A stretch of DNA of 64,000 bases. Origin: Shigella phage Sf13. The position numbers and the translations under genes are program-made. Location of the stretch: sequence record MF158040. The stretch is one strand, 5' to 3'. Under the pieces are notes generated by a model. The model did not search any database, was not told the DNA's origin, and saw nothing but the letters and a program-made list of their open reading frames with translations. Below are positions 11,656 through 16,347 of the stretch, in pieces. Each line of letters begins with the position of its first letter. Position 1 is the stretch's first letter.

Positions 11656-11731
11656 TGGAGTATCGGAAGGGACTCGAACCCTCATAAACCTGTTTTGCAG
11701 ACAGGCACATAACCATTTCTGACACCGACAC
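11656..11731 (-). tRNA. tRNA-Cys (anticodon GCA)
   Basis: Hand-folded cloverleaf on minus strand: T-arm, 7-bp acceptor stem with one G-U, encoded CCA, anticodon loop CUGCAAA. Confidence 0.7.
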
Positions 11732-11737
11732 ATAATT

Positions 11738-11830
11738 TGGAGGAAGATACCAGACTTGAACTGGTACGCCGATTTCTCGGTTACTGGCAGTTTAGCAAAC
11801 TGCTCCCTTACCTTTTAGGGTTAATCTTCC
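11738..11830 (-). tRNA. tRNA-Ser (anticodon GCU), class II
   Basis: 93 nt; perfect acceptor pairing; T-arm accag/acttgaa/ctggt; anticodon loop UUGCUAA; long variable arm. Confidence 0.7.
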
Positions 11831-11831
11831 A

Positions 11832-12566
11832 TTATTTGTTCAGAGCTTCTTTCATCTCTGGAGTTGCGATAGTATCAATCACACCAGTTTTACATGAATC
11901 ATCAAACCAGCTTGGTAGAACATTCGCAAGGAAACCATTAATATTTGTTTTCAGGTATTCTGCAATCAGTGCTGCTTCATCTGCAATCATCTGAGTTACT
12001 TCATTAGCATATGCAGTAATCTTTGCAATACCCTCATTAATCGCTGTAACGGCCTGTGTAGCGAGTTCAGAGATTGTATCTAGTCCTTGGTCGATTGCAT
12101 CTTGCAAATCGCTCAGAACGCTATTTACAGCGTCTATGGAGGTATTAATCAAATCCATCGCTTTATTACCGTACTCGGTAGCTACGCCCATGATACCGCT
12201 AAACGGTGTACATCCAACCTGTTCACCTGCTGCTCCCATAACGTTAGAGTAACCTTTAGCTACTTGCATACGTTGTGAAAACTCATCTACAGACTTTTGT
12301 CCATACTCAGTAAGTGTACTTGTCGTTGAAGTTGTACTTCCAAGGCTTGTTGTGAAGCTTCCTAATAAGGCTGTTGTCAGTCCAGCAGCAACTAAAATCT
12401 GTTGTGTAGCTGGGTCTGTTACAGAACTAATTGAGTTAACTAATGATTGAGAGGCAGCTACAGTACCACCAAGAACTGCTGCACCAGTAATAAGAGGGTT
12501 TGAGAAACCATTACCAGCTTTAAGGAGATTAAAAATCTCTTTACTTTGTTCTGTCATCTCTTTCAT
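11832..12566 (-). CDS. hypothetical Ser/Thr/Ala-rich protein embedded in tRNA array
   Basis: ORF track ORF trimmed to ATG at M22 so it does not run into the adjacent tRNA-like gene; low-complexity sequence. Confidence 0.4.
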   Translation of the reverse strand: MKEMTEQSKEIFNLLKAGNGFSNPLITGAAVLGGTVAASQSLVNSISSVTDPATQQILVAAGLTTALLGSFTTSLGSTTSTTSTLTEYGQKSVDEFSQRMQVAKGYSNVMGAAGEQVGCTPFSGIMGVATEYGNKAMDLINTSIDAVNSVLSDLQDAIDQGLDTISELATQAVTAINEGIAKITAYANEVTQMIADEAALIAEYLKTNINGFLANVLPSWFDDSCKTGVIDTIATPEMKEALNK

Positions 12567-12582
12567 TATGCACCTATAAAGT

Positions 12583-12657
12583 TGGTAGCCCATCGGGATT
12601 TGAACCCTGTTCTCATGTTTTTCAGACACGCGCTTTAACCATATAAGCTAATTGAGC
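12583..12657 (-). tRNA. tRNA-Phe-like (anticodon GAA) with defective T-stem; possible pseudogene
   Basis: Good D-arm (GCTT/AAGC) and anticodon arm (loop CUGAAAA) but T-stem has only about 3 bp and acceptor register is inconsistent. Confidence 0.45.
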
Positions 12658-12665
12658 TATTAAAT

Positions 12666-12742
12666 TGGGGTGACCTACGGGAATCGAACCCGTATAGACC
12701 ATGTTCACAGCATGGGTCATTATCCATTTATGATAAGGCCAC
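12666..12742 (-). tRNA. tRNA-His (anticodon GUG)
   Basis: Cloverleaf; anticodon loop CUGUGAA; one-nt offset consistent with extra 5' G typical of tRNA-His. Confidence 0.7.
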
Positions 12743-12773
12743 ATTTAAGGACTCTCGTAAGAACCCTTAGAAG

Positions 12774-12849
12774 TGGCAGCAGTATAAGGATTTGAACCTT
12801 AATCTTTCAGCTTCAGAGGCTGGAGCATTGCCAGTTATGCTATACTGCT
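12774..12849 (-). tRNA. tRNA-Gln (anticodon CUG)
   Basis: Perfect 7-bp acceptor stem, D-stem GCAT/ATGC, T-arm taagg/atttgaa/cctta, anticodon loop CUCUGAA. Confidence 0.7.
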
Positions 12850-12855
12850 AATATT

Positions 12856-12934
12856 TGGTACTCCATATCGGATTCGAACCGATACATAACACAGATTTTA
12901 AATCTGGCCTCTCTGCCAATTGGAGTAATGGAGC
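12856..12934 (-). tRNA. tRNA-Leu (anticodon UAA), atypical class I-like architecture
   Basis: Good T-arm and acceptor stem, A73 discriminator; anticodon loop UUUAAAA; no long variable arm; 79 nt. Confidence 0.5.
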
Positions 12935-12936
12935 GT

Positions 12937-13012
12937 TGGCGGGGGATGATGGAATTGAACCATCTTCTTCGATTTCAAAGACCGAGGTTTTAACCTTGTA
13001 AACTAATCCCCT
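12937..13012 (-). tRNA. tRNA-Gln (anticodon UUG)
   Basis: D-arm GTTT/AAAC, anticodon stem TCGGT/ATCGA with loop CUUUGAA, T-arm GATGG/CCATC. Confidence 0.65.
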
Positions 13013-13020
13013 ATTAAATT

Positions 13021-13097
13021 TGGTGCAGAATAGAGGATTCGAACCCCTAACTAACAACTTCGTAGGTTGCTGCTCTGTCCATTTGAACTAATTCTGC
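13021..13097 (-). tRNA. tRNA-Arg (anticodon ACG)
   Basis: Perfect acceptor stem; T-arm agagg/attcgaa/cccct; anticodon loop read as ACG. Confidence 0.7.
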
Positions 13098-13259
13098 AAT
13101 ATCCTTTTGAGATTCCTGTCTAGCTCTCTTCTTATCTCTTCTGAGAAAGCGTTTACGATGGTCTGTACGCCATTTGTAATAATCTTCTTCACCATCATGT
13201 GCTGCACAGCAGCCACAACTTGCAATTTCAACTTTACCATGTCTACCATAAGGCTTCAT
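13047..13259 (-). CDS. hypothetical small basic Cys-rich protein (70 aa) overlapping 5' half of tRNA-Arg
   Basis: ORF track; ATG with AGGAG RBS 7 nt upstream; last ~17 codons overlap the tRNA-Arg gene. Confidence 0.35.
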   Translation of the reverse strand: MKPYGRHGKVEIASCGCCAAHDGEEDYYKWRTDHRKRFLRRDKKRARQESQKDIAELVQMDRAATYEVVS

Positions 13260-13275
13260 AGGAATCTCCTAAAAT

Positions 13276-15093: not shown

Positions 15094-15169
15094 TGGTAGA
15101 AGTGGAGGGATTCGAACCCGTCGCCTGTCAGATTAAAAGTCTGCCGCATCACCATTCTGCTACACTTCC
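15094..15169 (-). tRNA. tRNA-Lys (anticodon UUU)
   Basis: Acceptor pairing, anticodon loop giving UUU; T-stem only about 3 bp. Confidence 0.55.
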
Positions 15170-15315
15170 ATTAAATCATCTTTGCAGTAACCTACGCAAA
15201 CCTTGCTAAAGGGTTTGTAGAGTCATCTCTTAGTAAGCTAATCTAGAATCATGCTCAAGAGACTCTTCGGCACTCATGGGACGACTGGTTAGCTCCATAA
15301 GTCACTGCAAAGAGG

Positions 15316-15445
15316 ATTACCAGACCGTATTTATCTTAAGTGCTTCCATTACACCAACACGCCGTAACGTGTGAAGGAATCGAACCTTCGCCTTTTCTTT
15401 ACCAGAGAAATAGATTGTTTATTGTTTGCTGTAAACGGTCTTCTG
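15316..15445 (-). repeat. bipartite intergenic box copy 1 (ACCAGACCGTAT ... TTGCTGTAAACGGTCTTCTG) enclosing a tRNA-like fragment
   Basis: Both half-boxes recur at 15945-16013 and 16108-16176; halves contain complementary AGACCGT/ACGGTCT. Confidence 0.45.
15366..15410 (-). pseudogene. tRNA-Thr (GGU)-like 3' fragment (anticodon arm + T-arm + acceptor 3' strand), no 5' half found
   Basis: Perfect T-arm gaagg/aatcgaa/ccttc and anticodon stem tttct/agaaa with loop giving GGU; no matching 5' acceptor strand or D-arm downstream. Confidence 0.4.
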
Positions 15446-15619
15446 TAAAATTGTTGGAACCAGACCAAGTTTTAAATTTTTCAAATTAAATTGGCTTGAA
15501 ATATTAAAATTGCTTGCTGTATTTGGTCTTCTGCTCCTTTAAAGAATACTCGTAAGAACTCTTTAAGGGAGGGGCTAACAAGCCCTCTCAAACATCATTT
15601 TGAAATACTTATTATAATT

Positions 15620-15696
15620 TGGCGGTTACGATGAGACTCGAACTCACATCATCCTCCGTGACAGGGAGGTATTTTGACCAGTTAAACTACATAACC
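15620..15696 (-). tRNA. tRNA-Asp (anticodon GUC)
   Basis: T-arm atgag/actcgaa/ctcac; anticodon stem cctcc/ggagg; anticodon GUC. Confidence 0.7.
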
Positions 15697-15702
15697 TTTA
15701 TT

Positions 15703-15790
15703 TGGTGCGCCGTGAAGGAGTCGAACCTACCGAGTCATAATGACAAGTGATTTACAGTCACCACCGCTTCCATCTACGGGATAACGACGC
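15703..15790 (-). tRNA. tRNA-Tyr (anticodon GUA), class II
   Basis: 88 nt with long variable arm; acceptor pairing with G-U; anticodon loop giving GUA. Confidence 0.65.
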
Positions 15791-15859
15791 ATTTTATTCT
15801 ATTCAGGCTAAGGACTTGCACCTTACAAATCGGTGAGCAATCGCTTCTCTCCCAAATCT

Positions 15860-15936
15860 TGGCGGTTAGTCAGGGATTCGAACCCTGTACCATTCGGTTA
15901 ACAGCCGACCGCACATGCCTTATGTGCTTCCTAACC
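15860..15936 (-). tRNA. tRNA-Asn (anticodon GUU)
   Basis: Perfect T-arm caggg/attcgaa/ccctg; D-stem gcac/gtgc; anticodon GUU. Confidence 0.7.
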
Positions 15937-15944
15937 ATGTTAGT

Positions 15945-16013
15945 ATTACCAGACCGTATCTTTTCATTTTTTCCTATAAAAAATTTTAAGTGTTTGCTGT
16001 AAACGGTCTTCTG
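15945..16013 (-). repeat. bipartite intergenic box copy 2, upstream of tRNA-Asn
   Basis: ATTACCAGACCGTAT then ~35 nt then TTGCTGTAAACGGTCTTCTG; TTTACA -35-like hexamer on minus strand. Confidence 0.45.
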
Positions 16014-16019
16014 TAAATT

Positions 16020-16096
16020 TGGAGGCGGGTGTAGGAGTCGAACCTACCGATAACATGCTAATGAGACATGTGAGACACCCTTTCTCTATACCCGCA
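16020..16096 (-). tRNA. tRNA-Met-like (anticodon CAU) with mismatched 1-72 pair; possible initiator or Ile2-type
   Basis: Perfect T-arm gtagg/agtcgaa/cctac; acceptor 6/7 paired with U1-C72 mismatch; anticodon loop register uncertain. Confidence 0.5.
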
Positions 16097-16107
16097 ATTC
16101 TTAATGA

Positions 16108-16176
16108 CCAGACCAAATCTTTTTTGGATTTCTATGCGCGAAATTGAAAAGTTTGTTTGCTGTAATTGGTCTTCTG
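16108..16176 (-). repeat. bipartite intergenic box copy 3, upstream of tRNA-Met-like gene
   Basis: ACCAGACCAAAT then ~35 nt then TTGCTGTAATTGGTCTTCTG; TTGACA hexamer on minus strand. Confidence 0.45.
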
Positions 16177-16183
16177 TCAAAAC

Positions 16184-16261
16184 TGGCATTCCCGAAGGGA
16201 CTTGAACCCTCAAACCACACCTTGAAAGGGTGTTGACTTTACCTAATTTGTCTACGGGAAT
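16184..16261 (-). tRNA. tRNA-Glu (anticodon UUC)
   Basis: Perfect acceptor; T-arm aaggg/acttgaa/ccctc; anticodon stem acacc/ggtgt; anticodon UUC. Confidence 0.7.
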
Positions 16262-16267
16262 ATAATT

Positions 16268-16347
16268 TGGTCTCCGTTGAAGGATTTGAACCTTCGACCC
16301 CTTGCTCCCAAAGCAAGTGCTGCTAAACCAAACTGAGCTAAACGGAG
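16268..16347 (-). tRNA. tRNA-Pro (anticodon UGG)
   Basis: Perfect acceptor, T-arm gaagg/atttgaa/ccttc, anticodon stem cttgc/gcaag; anticodon UGG; long D-loop. Confidence 0.65.

What the first reader, a model, noticed from the sequence alone, without database searches (positions are those of the whole stretch)
11656..16347. tRNA array whose anticodons cover all 20 amino acids
Hand folding gives about 27 minus-strand tRNA or tRNA-like genes with anticodons for Cys, Ser (2), Phe, His, Gln (2), Leu (3), Arg (2), Val, Thr, Gly, Ala, Lys (2), Trp, Ile, Met (2), Asp, Tyr, Asn, Glu and Pro. A set this complete is at the upper end for phages and implies strong codon-usage compensation or independence from host tRNA pools, for example against tRNA-cleaving defences. 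Anticodon calls are manual and should be verified.
Basis: seen in the sequence. Interest (0 to 1): 0.55.

Follow-up and report, generated by a model that had tools for sequence, protein, structure and literature searches.

The report
Phage tRNA array with hidden Y-RNAs
The tRNA gene cluster is real but already published for near-identical Shigella phages, and between its tRNAs lie four unannotated small RNAs that appear to partner the Ro60-like protein gene next door, a pairing that recurs across very different phages.

Summary
The window is a Mooglevirus (FelixO1-like), 99.3% identical here to Shigella phage Sf15. Tyr-GTA is a weak 26th. "Trp" is called by no predictor, but it is a conserved, covariation-supported tRNA-Trp-like RNA with an aberrant D region and anticodon loop. 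Coverage of 19 amino acids is solid; the 20th is unproven. The array is already annotated and analysed (Ross & Doore 2025: 26 tRNAs, 19 amino acids). Codon-usage matching is supported; a counter-defence role is not.

Four unannotated structured RNAs lie inside the given coordinates (E1-E4, 15316-16181). They share a 5'/3' stem, a UACAGCAA motif and a 3' CUG. E4 carries a tRNA-like module ordered like YrlA. The gene just upstream (16513-17928, DUF2828+DUF7788) models as a Ro60 ring. The same RNA signature sits on the gene's strand in 63 of 80 distant homologous loci (116 elements versus 2 on the opposite strand) and in Mycobacterium phage Faith1 and Listeria phage LMSP-25. It is absent from a related phage that lacks the gene. 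It also resembles Dictyostelium Class I RNAs. The tRNA array is known; the RNA family appears undescribed.

The parts
16513..17928 (-). Gene for a 471-aa Ro60-like protein (Pfam DUF2828 + DUF7788), directly upstream of the array on the same strand
   Evidence: Pfam hits. AlphaFold2 model pLDDT 86.7, pTM 0.87. The top 8 PDB matches are all Ro60/TROVE/Rsr, E 1e-8 to 2.5e-6, TM 0.41-0.65 (0.55-0.65 for the top seven). The Bas63 homologue gp130 was reported as Ro60-like and as a counter to the ppl defence system.
16466..16494 (-). Sigma-70-like promoter (TTGACA-17-TAATAT)
   Evidence: Consensus scan, 10 of 12 matches. The number of such sites in the region is no higher than in shuffles.
16375..16404 (-). 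Sigma-70-like promoter (TTGACA-18-TG-TATAGT), about 28 nt upstream of tRNA-Pro; likely start of the array transcript
   Evidence: 11 of 12 matches with an extended -10. Function is inferred.
16268..16347 (-). tRNA-Pro (TGG)
   Evidence: ARAGORN; Rfam 57.2 bits.
16184..16261 (-). tRNA-Glu (TTC)
   Evidence: ARAGORN; Rfam 59.7 bits.
16105..16181 (-). E1: Y-RNA-like / Class-I-like small RNA. It fills the spacer between tRNA-Glu and tRNA-Met: outer helix UGAC/GUCA, internal loop AGA/G, helix AGACCAA/UUGGUCU, then UUACAGCAA
   Evidence: Rfam Dicty_Class_I_RNA 21.3 bits, below threshold.
16020..16096 (-). tRNA with anticodon CAT, non-canonical (unpaired U1-C72, U at position 37); Met, Ile2 or initiator-like identity unresolved
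   Evidence: ARAGORN; Rfam 31.7 bits only with lax filters.
15945..16017 (-). E2: Y-RNA-like / Class-I-like small RNA between tRNA-Met and tRNA-Asn (UUAC/GUAA, AGA/G, AGACCGU/ACGGUCU, UUACAGCAA)
   Evidence: Rfam Dicty_Class_I_RNA 25.7 bits.
15860..15936 (-). tRNA-Asn (GTT)
   Evidence: ARAGORN; Rfam 45.5 bits.
15703..15790 (-). tRNA-Tyr (GTA) with long variable arm; weak, with a U-U mismatch in the T stem in this window
   Evidence: ARAGORN only at relaxed threshold; Rfam 22.8 bits; annotated as tRNA-Tyr in Sf15; one substitution relative to Sf15/Sf17; 'Pseudo (Tyr)' in Felix O1.
15620..15696 (-). tRNA-Asp (GTC)
   Evidence: ARAGORN; Rfam 64.5 bits.
15456..15537 (-). E3: Y-RNA-like / Class-I-like small RNA (GGAGC/GUUCC, AGA/G, AGACCAA/UUGGUCU, AUACAGCAA)
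15316..15449 (-). E4: long Y-RNA-like RNA with the same closing stem and motif as E1-E3. Inside it are a T arm (GAAGGUUCGAUUCCUUC), an acceptor-like hairpin and a D arm, in the same order as in YrlA
   Evidence: Rfam tRNA 28.8 bits over its T-arm half. The hairpin is compensated in three lineages. YrlA consensus order shown.
15170..15315 (-). 146-nt unannotated structured RNA closed by an 18-bp stem; kind unknown
   Evidence: MFE -48.1 kcal/mol, z = -4.78, 0 of 200 shuffles fold as well.
15094..15169 (-). tRNA-Lys (TTT)
   Evidence: ARAGORN; Rfam 54.2 bits.
14936..15012 (-). tRNA with anticodon CAT (G1-C72 paired, so not a bacterial initiator type)
   Evidence: ARAGORN; Rfam 56.9 bits.
14858..14933 (-). 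tRNA-Ile (GAT)
   Evidence: ARAGORN; Rfam 63.4 bits.
14814..14842 (-). Internal sigma-70-like promoter (TTGACA-17-TAAGAT)
14612..14807 (-). Structured RNA holding a tmRNA-like tag frame (14727-14762: GCA AAC GAT AAT GTT TTT CTG GCA GTA GCT TAA TAG, i.e. ANDNVFLAVA**); no tRNA-like domain found
   Evidence: Rfam below threshold: tmRNA_permuted 29.8 bits, alpha_tmRNA 20.3, tmRNA 13.6. ARAGORN finds no tmRNA. The two differences from Felixounavirus copies are synonymous or stop-to-stop, and the downstream hairpin is compensated. Fold z = -4.37.
14533..14609 (-). tRNA-Arg (TCT), reads AGA
   Evidence: ARAGORN; Rfam 63.1 bits.
14285..14367 (-). tRNA-Trp-like RNA: A1-U72, G73, encoded CCA end, anticodon CCA in loop CUCCAAA with a C31-A39 mismatch, about 8 extra nt between acceptor and D stem, 4-bp T stem
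   Evidence: Not called by predictors. Conserved in the sampled rows of 257 records, unannotated. Covariation supports the fold. Also present in Arno162, which lacks the Ro60-like gene.
14182..14271 (-). tRNA-Ser (TGA); the only tRNA here without an encoded CCA (it ends GCCU)
   Evidence: ARAGORN; Rfam 33.4 bits; 3' ends listed.
13854..13931 (-). tRNA-Leu (TAG)
   Evidence: ARAGORN; Rfam 40.0 bits.
13771..13846 (-). tRNA-Lys (CTT); no host counterpart according to Ross & Doore
   Evidence: ARAGORN; Rfam 56.9 bits.
13689..13764 (-). tRNA-Ala (TGC)
   Evidence: 62.7 bits.
13608..13682 (-). tRNA-Gly (TCC)
   Evidence: 59.6 bits.
13525..13601 (-). tRNA-Thr (TGT)
   Evidence: 50.8 bits.
13355..13429 (-). 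tRNA-Val (TAC)
   Evidence: 55.8 bits.
13276..13353 (-). tRNA-Leu (CAA)
   Evidence: 44.0 bits.
13047..13259 (-). 70-aa ORF inside the array; its 3' end overlaps tRNA-Arg(ACG) by 51 nt
   Evidence: ORF list; annotated as hypothetical protein gp103 in Sf15; no Pfam hit.
13021..13097 (-). tRNA-Arg (ACG)
   Evidence: 58.3 bits.
12937..13012 (-). tRNA-Gln (TTG)
   Evidence: 56.2 bits.
12856..12934 (-). tRNA-Leu (TAA)
   Evidence: 46.9 bits.
12774..12849 (-). tRNA-Gln (CTG)
   Evidence: 62.9 bits.
12666..12742 (-). tRNA-His (GTG)
   Evidence: ARAGORN; Rfam 49.3 bits with lax filters.
12583..12658 (-). tRNA-Phe (GAA)
   Evidence: 39.2 bits.
11832..12566 (-). 244-aa protein gene (Pfam DUF7217) that interrupts the array
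   Evidence: Pfam E 6e-84; Sf15 gp102.
11738..11830 (-). tRNA-Ser (GCT)
   Evidence: 46.0 bits.
11656..11731 (-). tRNA-Cys (GCA); last gene of the array
   Evidence: 50.2 bits.
11564..11623 (-). Terminator-like compound hairpin (GCCCUG...CAGGGC) followed by six T; probable end of the array transcript
   Evidence: Read from the sequence. A terminator is annotated just downstream of tRNA-Cys in phage Mijalis. Function is inferred.

Best explanation
The region is the tRNA operon of a Mooglevirus (FelixO1-like myovirus). It holds 25 canonical tRNA genes and a weak tRNA-Tyr. All lie on the minus strand, are packed 2-10 nt apart in blocks, and 25 of the 26 encode their own CCA end. Transcription most likely starts at sigma-70-like promoters just upstream of tRNA-Pro and at one or more internal promoters, and ends at a hairpin with a T-run after tRNA-Cys. 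Host RNases would then cut the transcript into individual tRNAs; this step is inferred.

The main job of the array is to supply decoders, mostly U34 tRNAs reading NNA codons, for the codons that this 39% G+C phage uses heavily and its 51% G+C host uses rarely. That would keep late, structural-gene translation running as host supply wanes.

The set covers 19 amino acids with confidence. The 20th depends on a conserved but non-canonical tRNA-Trp-like RNA whose decoding ability is unknown.

The array is also the downstream part of a second module. The gene immediately upstream encodes a Ro60-like ring protein. Four spacers in the promoter-proximal third of the array are not spacers but small RNAs (E1-E4). 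Their paired 5' and 3' ends, UACAGCAA motif and 3' CUG form a signature that travels with this protein family across phages. E4 adds a tRNA-like module of the YrlA type. They are most likely this protein's partner ('Y') RNAs, released from the tRNA transcript by the same processing; both binding and release are inferred.
For: tRNA calls.

Identity with published arrays: 99.3% to Sf15 with 26 annotated tRNAs; Sf14 has 26 tRNAs for 19 amino acids; Sf14 and its relatives encode 25-27 tRNA genes.

CCA ends. Promoter-like and terminator-like sites.

Codon usage against E. coli genes. This agrees.

Ro60-like fold; independent report for Bas63 gp130.

E1-E4:
- They are conserved at the same places in 9 related genomes.
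- The two-helix core has a covariation score of 0.562 against at most 0.136 in slid controls.
- One-sided changes give G-U pairs only on the tRNA strand.
- They are the only four matches to the signature in the 64-kb window.

Across 80 loci whose Ro60-like proteins are mostly about 40% identical:
- 63 loci have at least one same-strand element, and in 48 the nearest lies within 1 kb of the gene.
- There are 116 elements on the gene strand against 2 on the other, and 13 in five-fold shuffles of both strands.
- The 5' motif occurs 107 times on the gene strand against 4 on the other. 87 of the 107 have the matching 3' strand, against 1.5% when the stem is randomised.
- 44 different stem sequences occur among 78 distinct elements.

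Negative control: Arno162 has a homologous array but no Ro60-like gene and no element.

Named phages: Faith1 and LMSP-25 carry three elements each in the unannotated gap beside the gene.

Long forms in distant loci give sub-threshold YrlA matches of 28.7-38.9 bits exactly where the elements lie.
Against: - No expression, processing or binding data were available. Promoter-like sites are no more frequent than in shuffles.
- Bas63 tRNAs were mostly dispensable on four laboratory strains, so the benefit is conditional.
- Pfam's TROVE model does not hit the protein, and the Ro60 assignment rests on a predicted structure.
- Rfam's YrlA model does not hit E4, and YrlA's GNCGAA motif is not at the equivalent place.
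- 17 of 80 loci and Vibrio phage nt-1 show no element with my pattern.
- The search pattern was derived from this window and one relative, though it was tested on independent loci.
- Co-location does not prove binding.
Confidence: 0.75

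Rival explanations
1. The array exists mainly as a counter-defence. Phage tRNAs would replace host tRNAs that are cut or depleted by anticodon nucleases, PARIS, retron or PrrC-type systems; this is the reader's second suggestion.
For: Such roles are established for other phages: van den Berg 2023 for mycobacteriophages and Azam 2023 for T5 tRNA-Tyr, both cited. The array includes Lys-UUU, Tyr, Asn, Asp, His and Arg species, which are typical nuclease targets (established knowledge, not tested here). About half of the Sf14 tRNAs differ from host tRNAs in the anticodon loop. The neighbouring Ro60-like gene counters a defence system in Bas63.
Against: Ross & Doore judged nuclease escape unlikely for Sf14: the host is known to carry only VapC, whose target tRNA-fMet the phage lacks, and the loop changes were not expected to confer resistance. 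The strong match between the anticodon set and phage-enriched codons is explained by codon supply alone. tRNAs were mostly non-essential on four strains, although none of those screens targeted tRNA-cleaving systems.
Confidence: 0.2
2. The Trp-like element (14285-14367) is a working tRNA-Trp, so the phage really does cover all 20 amino acids.
For: The anticodon is CCA in the same CUCCAAA loop as E. coli tRNA-Trp, with A1-U72 and G73, which are E. coli TrpRS identity elements (recalled from established knowledge, not tested here). It has an encoded CCA end. Acceptor, D, anticodon and T stems are all kept by compensatory changes across Moogle-, Felixouna-, Pectobacterium-phage and IMG/VR lineages. 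It is retained in Arno162, which lacks the Ro60 module, as expected for a decoder.
Against: It is rejected by ARAGORN, by Rfam's tRNA model and, judging from the annotated records sampled, by tRNAscan-SE. There are about 8 extra nucleotides between the acceptor and D stems, a 3-bp D stem and a 4-bp T stem. The 31-39 mismatch is conserved (C-A, or C-C in Arno162), so the loop is effectively 9 nt. The D region differs greatly in L008. The published count is 19 amino acids.
Confidence: 0.45
3. E1-E4 are only processing or spacer hairpins (RNase E/III/P guides, attenuators or terminators) of tRNA operons and have nothing to do with the Ro60-like protein.
For: They exactly fill tRNA-tRNA spacers. 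In about half of the 80 loci tRNAs are nearby on the same strand, so a tRNA-operon association could mimic an association with the gene.
Against: Many loci have elements next to the gene but no tRNA in the fetched DNA, for example L018, L020, L021, L028, L030, L046, L062 and L066. Faith1 has three elements next to its Ro-like gene with no tRNA annotated in the locus shown. Arno162 keeps the homologous tRNA array but has neither gene nor elements. A conserved single-stranded UACAGCAA, and a tRNA-like module in the long forms that scores as YrlA, are not features of simple processing hairpins.
Confidence: 0.15
4. The likeness of E1-E3 to Dictyostelium Class I RNAs is coincidence or convergence, not shared ancestry or shared protein partner.
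For: All Rfam RF01414 scores are below the 41.5-bit threshold (17.6-30.8 bits). Class I RNAs were reported as restricted to Dictyostelia, with their own promoter element and an RRM-protein partner. I could not check whether Dictyostelium encodes a DUF2828 protein.
Against: The shared features are several and specific. Both have a stem of about 6-7 bp joining the ends, whose sequence varies while a G at or next to its 5' end (the 5'-most residue in Class I RNAs, the second base in the phage RNAs) and its partner C stay fixed. Both have UUACAGCAA immediately 3' of the 5' strand, an A-rich run before the 3' strand, and a 3' CUG(U). The sub-threshold hits coincide exactly with independently defined elements. 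The protein family also occurs in giant viruses of protists.
Confidence: 0.6

Closest known systems
tRNA arrays of Mooglevirus and Felixounavirus phages (Shigella phages Sf15, Sf14, Sf17; Citrobacter phage Moogle; Salmonella phage Felix O1; E. coli phage Bas63)
   Same: The DNA is the same: 99.3% identity to Sf15 over 11400-16600, with the same gene order and anticodons. The role in codon supply has been analysed in print.
   Different: There is one T-stem substitution in Tyr and a few indels. None of these records or papers annotates E1-E4, the Trp-like RNA or the tmRNA-like piece.
Other large phage tRNA clusters (15-37 genes; for example T4-, T5- and KVP40-like phages and mycobacteriophage cluster C)
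   Same: All are dense, same-strand clusters in virulent phages, with anticodons that tend to match phage-preferred codons.
   Different: 26 genes in an 88-kb genome is dense for its size. Only 8 of 228 surveyed clusters had all 20 isotypes. Here 19 are secure.
Ro60/Rsr with Y RNAs, especially bacterial and phage YrlA (Rfam RF02553)
   Same: The protein is a ring-shaped Ro60-like fold with a vWA domain. The small RNAs lie within about 1.2 kb on the same strand, and their 5' and 3' ends pair into a conserved stem. E4 has a T arm, a hairpin and a D arm in the YrlA order. Phage examples of such modules are already known.
   Different: The protein belongs to Pfam DUF2828/DUF7788, not TROVE. The RNA stem and UACAGCAA signature replace YrlA's GNCGAA-containing stem. 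Rfam's YrlA model does not reach threshold. Most copies are short forms without any tRNA-like module. In this window they are embedded in a tRNA operon.
Dictyostelid Class I RNAs (Rfam RF01414)
   Same: Size is about 60 nt. A short stem joins the ends, with variable sequence and a fixed G...C pair. CCUUACAGCAA sits next to the 5' strand, the interior is A/U-rich and variable, and the 3' end is CUGU.
   Different: The phage RNAs score 17.6-30.8 bits against a threshold of 41.5. They usually have one more base pair (A-U) outside the G-C and, in this window, a further outer helix. Class I RNAs are eukaryotic, have their own promoter element and a known RRM-protein partner, and were reported as unique to Dictyostelia.
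tmRNA (Rfam RF00023, RF01849, RF04321)
   Same: The piece at 14727-14762 has the resume context AAUAAAU-GCA, an ANDxxxxLAxA-type tag and two stop codons in a hairpin.
   Different: No tRNA-like domain, no pseudoknots, and no call by ARAGORN or at Rfam's thresholds.

Membership tests
tRNA (Rfam RF00005; ARAGORN) | Cloverleaf scoring at or above the curated threshold, with a 7-nt anticodon loop | tested here: met
   25 genes pass: ARAGORN at default settings and Rfam at or above 29 bits. Tyr scores 22.8 bits and passes only relaxed ARAGORN. The Trp-like element fails.
tRNA (Rfam RF00005; ARAGORN) | A 3' CCA end, encoded or added | tested here: met
   CCA is encoded in 25 of 26 tRNAs and in the Trp-like element. 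Ser-TGA ends GCCU.
tRNA (Rfam RF00005; ARAGORN) | Expression, processing and aminoacylation | not testable with these tools
   No RNA or biochemical data were available.
tRNA-Trp (for 14285-14367) | Recognised as a tRNA by standard predictors | tested here: not met
   ARAGORN makes no call, or '?(aagg)' at the relaxed threshold. Rfam's tRNA model gives no hit and its tRNA-Sec model 21.5 bits. The sampled rows of the 257 matching records show no tRNA annotation.
tRNA-Trp (for 14285-14367) | Anticodon CCA; A1-U72 and G73 (E. coli TrpRS identity set, recalled from established knowledge) | tested here: met
   Read from the sequence. Whether these suffice in this scaffold was not tested.
tRNA-Trp (for 14285-14367) | Canonical D arm, 5-bp T stem and a paired 31-39 | tested here: not met
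   About 8 extra nt before a 3-bp D stem, a 4-bp T stem, and a conserved C31-A39 mismatch (C-C in Arno162).
tRNA-Trp (for 14285-14367) | Stems maintained by selection | tested here: met
   97.8% of cells pair. 9 of 20 pairs change on both sides, against 0-1 in the slid controls.
Ro60 / TROVE-vWA proteins (for 16513-17928) | HEAT-repeat ring plus a C-terminal vWA domain | tested here: met
   On a predicted structure only: pLDDT 86.7, and the top 8 PDB matches are Ro60/Rsr/phage Ro60 over more than 500 aligned columns.
Ro60 / TROVE-vWA proteins (for 16513-17928) | Match to the Pfam TROVE sequence family | tested here: not met
   Only DUF2828 and DUF7788 are hit at E <= 0.01. No PDB sequence match.
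Ro60 / TROVE-vWA proteins (for 16513-17928) | Binds Y RNA and misfolded RNA | not testable with these tools
   Inferred from the fold and from the linked RNAs.
Y RNA / YrlA (for E1-E4) | Encoded within about 4 kb of the Ro60 gene on the same strand (criterion of Chen 2014) | tested here: met
   E1-E4 lie 330-1200 nt downstream on the same strand. The same holds in 63 of 80 homologous loci.
Y RNA / YrlA (for E1-E4) | 5' and 3' ends paired into a conserved stem with an internal loop | tested here: met
   Covariation score 0.562 against at most 0.136 in slid controls. The AGA/G internal loop is invariant in the Moogle and Felixouna copies.
Y RNA / YrlA (for E1-E4) | tRNA-like module (T arm, hairpin, D arm) | tested here: met
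   E4 only. The order matches the Rfam YrlA consensus. E1-E3 lack it.
Y RNA / YrlA (for E1-E4) | GNCGAAN0-1G motif in the stem; Rfam RF02553 score of at least 69 bits | tested here: not met
   No YrlA hit on E1-E4 at E <= 10. Distant long forms score 28.7-38.9 bits. The stem motif here is different.
Dictyostelid Class I RNA (RF01414) | Short terminal stem with a fixed 5' G, an adjacent CCUUACAGCAA, and a 3' CUGU | tested here: met
   UUACAGCAA, the G...C pair and a 3' CUG are present. LMSP-25 copies end CUGU. The first two motif positions differ.
Dictyostelid Class I RNA (RF01414) | Rfam gathering score of 41.5 bits | tested here: not met
   17.6-25.7 bits in the window and 27.9-30.8 bits in distant loci.
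Dictyostelid Class I RNA (RF01414) | Dictyostelid genome context (upstream DUSE promoter element) | tested here: not met
   These are phage loci. Whether Dictyostelia encode a DUF2828 protein could not be tested.
tmRNA | Tag reading frame with a GCA resume codon and stop codons | tested here: met
   ANDNVFLAVA** at 14727-14762.
tmRNA | Alanine-accepting tRNA-like domain; detection by ARAGORN or at Rfam's threshold | tested here: not met
   No tmRNA call. The best Rfam score is 29.8 bits against a threshold of 47, partly borrowed from tRNA-Ile.

The most novel reading that the evidence does not exclude
The short RNAs hidden between the tRNAs belong to a large, undescribed family: a terminal stem starting (A/U)G and ending C(U/A)G, then U(A/U)CAGCAA, then a variable body that sometimes holds a tRNA-like module. 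These would be the cognate small RNAs of DUF2828-type Ro60-like proteins in phages of Proteobacteria, Actinobacteria and Firmicutes. The Dictyostelium Class I RNAs, whose function and origin have been open since 2004, would be eukaryotic members of the same RNA-protein system. I put the phage half alone, that these RNAs are functional partners of the protein, at about 0.65-0.7. The probability given here is for both halves together.
Probability: 0.3. Interest if true: 0.85.

Novelty: new variant of a known kind. Interest (0 to 1): 0.55.

Why it matters
The finding as written is ordinary. The tRNA array is annotated in GenBank for a 99.3% identical phage and has its own paper. The one disputed point, Trp, now has a concrete candidate that can be tested for charging.

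What matters is inside the same coordinates. About 700 phage records carry this Ro60-like gene, which is usually labelled 'hypothetical', 'vWFA' or 'RNA-binding protein'. In one relative the gene counters a defence system, yet no partner RNA had been identified; the authors guessed that some annotated tRNAs might serve. A simple sequence-and-structure signature now points to specific candidate RNAs in Felixounaviruses such as Bas63, mycobacteriophage Faith1 and Listeria phage LMSP-25. That makes binding, processing and anti-defence experiments directly possible.

If the resemblance to Dictyostelium Class I RNAs reflects a shared protein partner, it would give a testable biochemical hypothesis for an abundant, developmentally important RNA class of unknown mechanism.

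The result also shows that 'spacers' in phage tRNA arrays deserve annotation in their own right.

Tried and rejected
- Rfam at gathering thresholds finds nothing but tRNAs in the window. Every non-tRNA lead comes from sub-threshold hits plus comparative evidence.
- Sequence search of the Ro60-like protein against PDB chains gave nothing. Only the predicted fold shows the relationship.
- The AlphaFold-database fold library was unavailable, so I could not list eukaryotic homologues or check Dictyostelium. Literature searches for DUF2828 and its accession numbers did not help either. Avesson 2011, which reports the proteins pulled down with a Class I RNA, is not in the library.
- I considered E4 as a permuted tRNA gene or as the acceptor piece of a two-piece tmRNA. 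I rejected this because the acceptor-like helix is a capped 5-7-bp hairpin without CCA.
- I looked for a tRNA-like domain that could serve the tmRNA-like tag. None was found. The Rfam 'permuted tmRNA' hit borrows tRNA-Ile.
- MAFFT misaligned the divergent L008 copies. I therefore did not build a covariance model. The core was counted on trimmed 5' and 3' strands joined by an artificial GAAA linker, and family-wide tests used an explicit pattern with shuffled, opposite-strand and randomised-stem controls.
- Single-sequence fold z-scores for E1-E4, the Tyr gene and the Trp-like RNA are unremarkable, between -0.05 and -2.1, so thermodynamics alone would not have flagged them.
- The promoter and terminator scan is not enriched over shuffles. 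Those sites are offered only as plausible.

Full report

Yes, almost entirely. ARAGORN at default settings finds 25 tRNA genes in the whole 64-kb window. Rfam's tRNA model passes its curated threshold for 23 of them in a whole-window scan. The two misses were filter artefacts: in short-range scans His scores 49.3 bits and the Met-CAT gene at 16020-16096 scores 31.7 bits.

- **Tyr-GTA (15703-15790).** It appears only when ARAGORN's threshold is lowered and scores 22.8 bits in Rfam against a cut-off of 29. The window differs from Sf15 and Sf17 by one G>T change that turns a G-U pair of the T stem into U-U. In those phages ARAGORN and tRNAscan-SE do call it. In Felix O1 it was published as 'Pseudo (Tyr)'.
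- **'Trp' (14285-14367).** No predictor calls it, and it is unannotated in the sampled rows of the 257 related records that hold the region.

**2. What the window is, and what is already known.**

Region 11400-16600 is 99.3% identical to Shigella phage Sf15 (Ounavirinae, Mooglevirus) and 92-98% identical to its closest Moogle-like relatives. About 300 FelixO1-like records match it. Sf15's GenBank record annotates 26 tRNAs in the same order, namely the 25 above plus Tyr. Sf17 is annotated the same way. Bas63 and Mijalis keep the same overall order but annotate 25 tRNAs each.

Sf14 and its six relatives are described as encoding 25-27 tRNA genes. [quoted passage not shown] The array itself is therefore already known.

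**3. The Trp-like RNA.**

Although predictors reject it, it is not noise.

- It ends in G-CCA and has A1-U72 and discriminator G73.
- Its loop is CUCCAAA, with anticodon CCA. From memory, these are the features of E. coli tRNA-Trp and its synthetase identity set; I did not test this.
- Copies from Sf17, Felixounavirus-like contigs, Mijalis, Pectobacterium phage Arno162 and a distant 88-kb IMG/VR contig (L008) keep all four stems through compensatory changes.
- On that alignment 97.8% of cells pair. Nine of 20 pairs change on both sides, against 0-1 when the partners are slid.

It also departs from a tRNA.

- About 8 extra nucleotides sit between the acceptor and D stems.
- The D stem has 3 bp and the T stem 4 bp.
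- The 31-39 mismatch is conserved (C-A, or C-C in Arno162), which makes the loop effectively 9 nt.

I rate a working tRNA-Trp at about 0.45. 'All 20 amino acids' is therefore unproven rather than wrong.

**4. Anatomy of the operon.**

- The genes sit in tight blocks, 2-10 nt apart.
- 25 of 26 tRNAs encode their CCA end. Ser-TGA ends GCCU.
- A strong sigma-70-like promoter (TTGACA-18-TG-TATAGT, 16404-16375) lies about 28 nt upstream of tRNA-Pro. Others lie at 16494-16466 and 14842-14814.
- A compound hairpin with a T-run follows tRNA-Cys (11623-11564). A terminator is annotated just downstream of tRNA-Cys in Mijalis.
- Promoter-like and terminator-like sites are not enriched over shuffles, so these assignments are inferences.
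- Two protein genes interrupt the array: a 244-aa DUF7217 protein (11832-12566) and a 70-aa ORF whose end overlaps tRNA-Arg(ACG).

**5. What the tRNAs are for.**

The window has 38.9% G+C. I compared 53 long phage ORFs with ribosomal and other E. coli K-12 genes. The phage over-uses precisely those codons for which it carries cognate tRNAs:

| Codon | Share of its amino acid in the phage | Share in E. coli genes |
|---|---|---|
| AGA (Arg) | 31% | 1-3% |
| CCA (Pro) | 48% | 12-29% |
| ACA (Thr) | 39% | 5-21% |
| TCA (Ser) | 27% | 4-19% |
| TTA (Leu) | 22% | 3-12% |
| GGA (Gly) | 16% | 1-11% |
| CAA (Gln) | 54% | 17-41% |

This agrees with the Felix O1 analysis and with Ross & Doore. They found that late-gene tRNA adaptation is highest with the phage tRNA pool, and they favoured reliance on phage tRNAs late in infection. 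They also judged escape from anticodon nucleases unlikely for Sf14. Bas63 tRNAs were mostly dispensable on four laboratory strains.

The counter-defence part is unsupported, though it has not been tested on hosts with tRNA-targeting systems.

As for rarity, clusters of 15-37 tRNA genes occur in 228 surveyed virus genomes, 8 of them with all 20 isotypes. This array is high for an 88-kb genome but not extreme.

**6. What else is inside the coordinates: a Ro60-like module.**

*The protein.* The gene immediately upstream of the array (16513-17928, same strand) hits only Pfam DUF2828 and DUF7788. Its AlphaFold2 model (pLDDT 86.7, pTM 0.87) matches Ro60, bacterial Rsr and the Thermus-phage Ro60 as the top eight PDB hits, with E 1e-8 to 2.5e-6 and TM 0.55-0.65 over more than 500 columns for the top seven; the bacterial Rsr match is weaker, TM 0.41. 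A preprint on Bas63 independently noted that the homologue gp130 is Ro60-like and counters the ppl defence system. [quoted passage not shown]

*The RNAs.* Four 'spacers' in the promoter-proximal third of the array are structured RNAs with a common design: E1 16105-16181, E2 15945-16017, E3 15456-15537 and E4 15316-15449. From outside to inside the design is:

- an outer helix of 4-5 bp;
- an invariant internal loop, 5' AGA opposite 3' G;
- a 7-bp helix AGACCnn/nnGGUCU;
- single-stranded UACAGCAA;
- a variable body.

*Conservation and covariation.* The elements are conserved at the same places in nine related genomes. Both helices covary: UUAC/GUAA against UUGC/GCAA, and CAA/UUG against CGU/ACG. 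One-sided changes give G-U pairs only on the tRNA strand. The covariation score is 0.562 against at most 0.136 in slid controls.

*E4.* Its body holds a T arm (GAAGGUUCGAUUCCUUC), an acceptor-like hairpin and a D arm. The hairpin is compensated in three lineages: ACACG/CGUGU, ACUCG/CGAGU and ACCCUUC/GAAGGGU. This is the same order as in Rfam's YrlA consensus.

**7. The signature travels with the protein family.**

I fetched 80 IMG/VR loci encoding homologues, most about 40% identical. About half have same-strand tRNAs nearby, none has opposite-strand tRNAs, and six have tmRNAs.

A contig with a 46% identical protein (L008) has the same kinds of elements with different, compensated stems, for example AGAGCAC/GUGCUCU and AGGACAC/GUGUCCU, and an E4 analogue.

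I then wrote the signature as an explicit pattern: a 7-mer with G second, 0-2 nt, nnCAGCAA, then the complementary 7-mer followed by G within 190 nt. The results across the 80 loci were as follows.

- The pattern matches 116 times on the gene's strand and twice on the other. It hits 63 of the 80 loci, in 48 of them within 1 kb of the gene and often 20-350 nt past the stop codon. Five-fold shuffles of both strands give 13 matches.
- The test is not circular. The 5' half alone occurs 107 times on the gene strand against 4 on the other. 87 of the 107 have the matching 3' strand, against 1.5% when the stem is randomised.
- Among 78 distinct elements there are 44 different stems. A U not required by the pattern is present in 77 of 78, and there is an A-rich run before the 3' strand.
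- In distant loci the long forms coincide with sub-threshold YrlA hits of 28.7-38.9 bits.

*Negative control.* Pectobacterium phage Arno162 has a homologous tRNA array, including the Trp-like RNA. It has no Ro60-like gene (best tblastn E 0.38 over 91 kb) and no element on either strand. In the window, E1-E4 are the only matches in 64 kb.

*Named phages.* Mycobacterium phage Faith1 has three elements, one with a tRNA-like module, in the unannotated gap after its 'Ro-like RNA binding protein'. Listeria phage LMSP-25 has three in the gap before its gene, with an RtcB ligase gene 1.3 kb downstream. Vibrio phage nt-1 shows none within 2.5 kb.

The protein occurs in 703 phage records and in giant viruses of protists.

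I infer that these RNAs are the protein's partner RNAs, with probability about 0.65-0.7. Binding itself has not been shown.

**8. Resemblance to Dictyostelium Class I RNAs.**

Rfam's only hits on E1, E2 and E4 are sub-threshold matches to RF01414: 21.3, 25.7 and 17.6 bits against a threshold of 41.5. Short forms in distant loci score 27.9-30.8 bits, exactly on independently defined elements.

The family consensus printed by Rfam is GaUcuC-CUUACAGCAA-(A/U-rich)-AAAAA-GagAuC-UG. The published description is a 6-bp terminal stem of variable sequence with an invariant 5' G, an adjacent 11-nt motif, and a 3' CUGU whose C pairs with that G. Both match the phage design feature for feature.

Class I RNAs were reported as unique to Dictyostelia and are of unknown mechanism. 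I could not test whether Dictyostelia encode a DUF2828 protein. This remains a lead. I put shared ancestry or a shared partner at about 0.3-0.4.

**9. Other oddities in the array.**

- 14612-14807 holds a tmRNA-like tag frame (ANDNVFLAVA, then two stop codons) with the typical resume context. No tRNA-like domain was found. Its two differences from Felixounavirus copies are synonymous or stop-to-stop, the next hairpin is compensated, and the region folds with z = -4.37.
- 15170-15315 is a 146-nt RNA closed by an 18-bp stem, z = -4.78.
- The Met-CAT gene at 16020-16096 has an unpaired U1-C72 and U37.

**10. Verdict.**

The finding as written is a correct reading of an already published tRNA array. 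Its headline claim of 20 amino acids rests on one non-canonical RNA. On its own it deserves low interest, about 0.15.

The same coordinates, however, hold members of an apparently undescribed small-RNA family linked to DUF2828-type Ro60-like proteins across phages. No paper in the searchable library and no Rfam family describes it. The overall scores reflect that second point: a new variant of the known Ro60-Y RNA kind, interest 0.55.

*Shown:* the tRNA calls, sequence identity with known phages, codon statistics, the predicted fold, covariation, and genomic association with controls.

*Inferred:* transcription and processing, decoding by the Tyr and Trp-like RNAs, RNA-protein binding, and any role in counter-defence.

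Noticed in passing
window 14612-14807 (-); tag frame 14727-14762: A tmRNA-like mRNA piece follows an internal promoter: AAUAAAU-GCA AAC GAU AAU GUU UUU CUG GCA GUA GCU UAA UAG (ANDNVFLAVA**). Rfam tmRNA families match below threshold and ARAGORN finds no tmRNA. In Felixounavirus copies the only differences are GAU>GAC and UAA>UGA, and the next hairpin is compensated. No tRNA-like domain was found.
   Followed up: partly
window 15170-15315 (-): An unannotated 146-nt stretch between E4 and tRNA-Lys(TTT) folds into a structure closed by an 18-bp stem (MFE -48.1, z -4.78, 0 of 200 shuffles as stable). It matches no Rfam family.
   Followed up: partly
window 12743-12773, 14612-14645, 15545-15580 (-): Three copies of a similar hairpin, (U)UAAAGrG-UUCUUACGAG-...CUUUAA, lie just before tRNA-His, tRNA-Arg(TCT) and E3. 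They may be processing or regulatory sites.
   Followed up: no
window 16020-16096 (-): One of the two CAT-anticodon tRNAs has an unpaired U1-C72 and U at position 37, and no run of three G-C pairs in the anticodon stem. Whether it is an elongator Met, an Ile2 (lysidine) or an initiator-like tRNA is unresolved. ATA is 6% of Ile codons in the phage.
   Followed up: partly
window 15791-15859 (-): The spacer between tRNA-Asn and tRNA-Tyr looks like a decayed tRNA, with a T-arm-like AAGGUGCAAGUCCUU and an anticodon-arm-like CACCGAUUUGUAAGGUG.
   Followed up: no
window 13047-13259 (-) and 13021-13097 (-): A 70-aa ORF (Sf15 gp103) with a good ribosome-binding site ends 51 nt inside tRNA-Arg(ACG). One stretch of DNA would therefore encode both a protein tail and a tRNA.
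   Followed up: no
window 13932-14181 (-): A 250-nt gap between tRNA-Ser(TGA) and tRNA-Leu(TAG) holds no tRNA and no convincing ORF. It contains a hairpin followed by a T-run (AAAGGCCAAUAGGUCUUUUU) that looks like an internal terminator.
   Followed up: no
L090 (Listeria phage LMSP-25) 2057-6455: The Ro60-like gene of this Listeria phage sits between three Class-I-like RNAs and, 1.3 kb downstream, an RtcB-type tRNA ligase gene. tRNAs and a ribosome-associated inhibitor gene lie upstream. This echoes the bacterial rsr-yrlA-rtcBA RNA-repair operon.
   Followed up: no
L002 (Sf17) 3112-3339; arrays of Sf16 and Michonne: Relatives differ from the window by insertions inside the array: an extra small ORF between Gln(TTG) and Arg(ACG) in Sf17, and HNH homing endonuclease genes in Sf16 and Michonne. 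The array is a hot spot for mobile insertions.
   Followed up: no
L003-L082: In 80 diverse phage loci with a DUF2828 gene, every one of several hundred nearby tRNA genes is on the gene's strand and none is on the opposite strand. Six loci also carry a tmRNA. The Ro60-like gene is a frequent neighbour of phage tRNA islands.
   Followed up: partly
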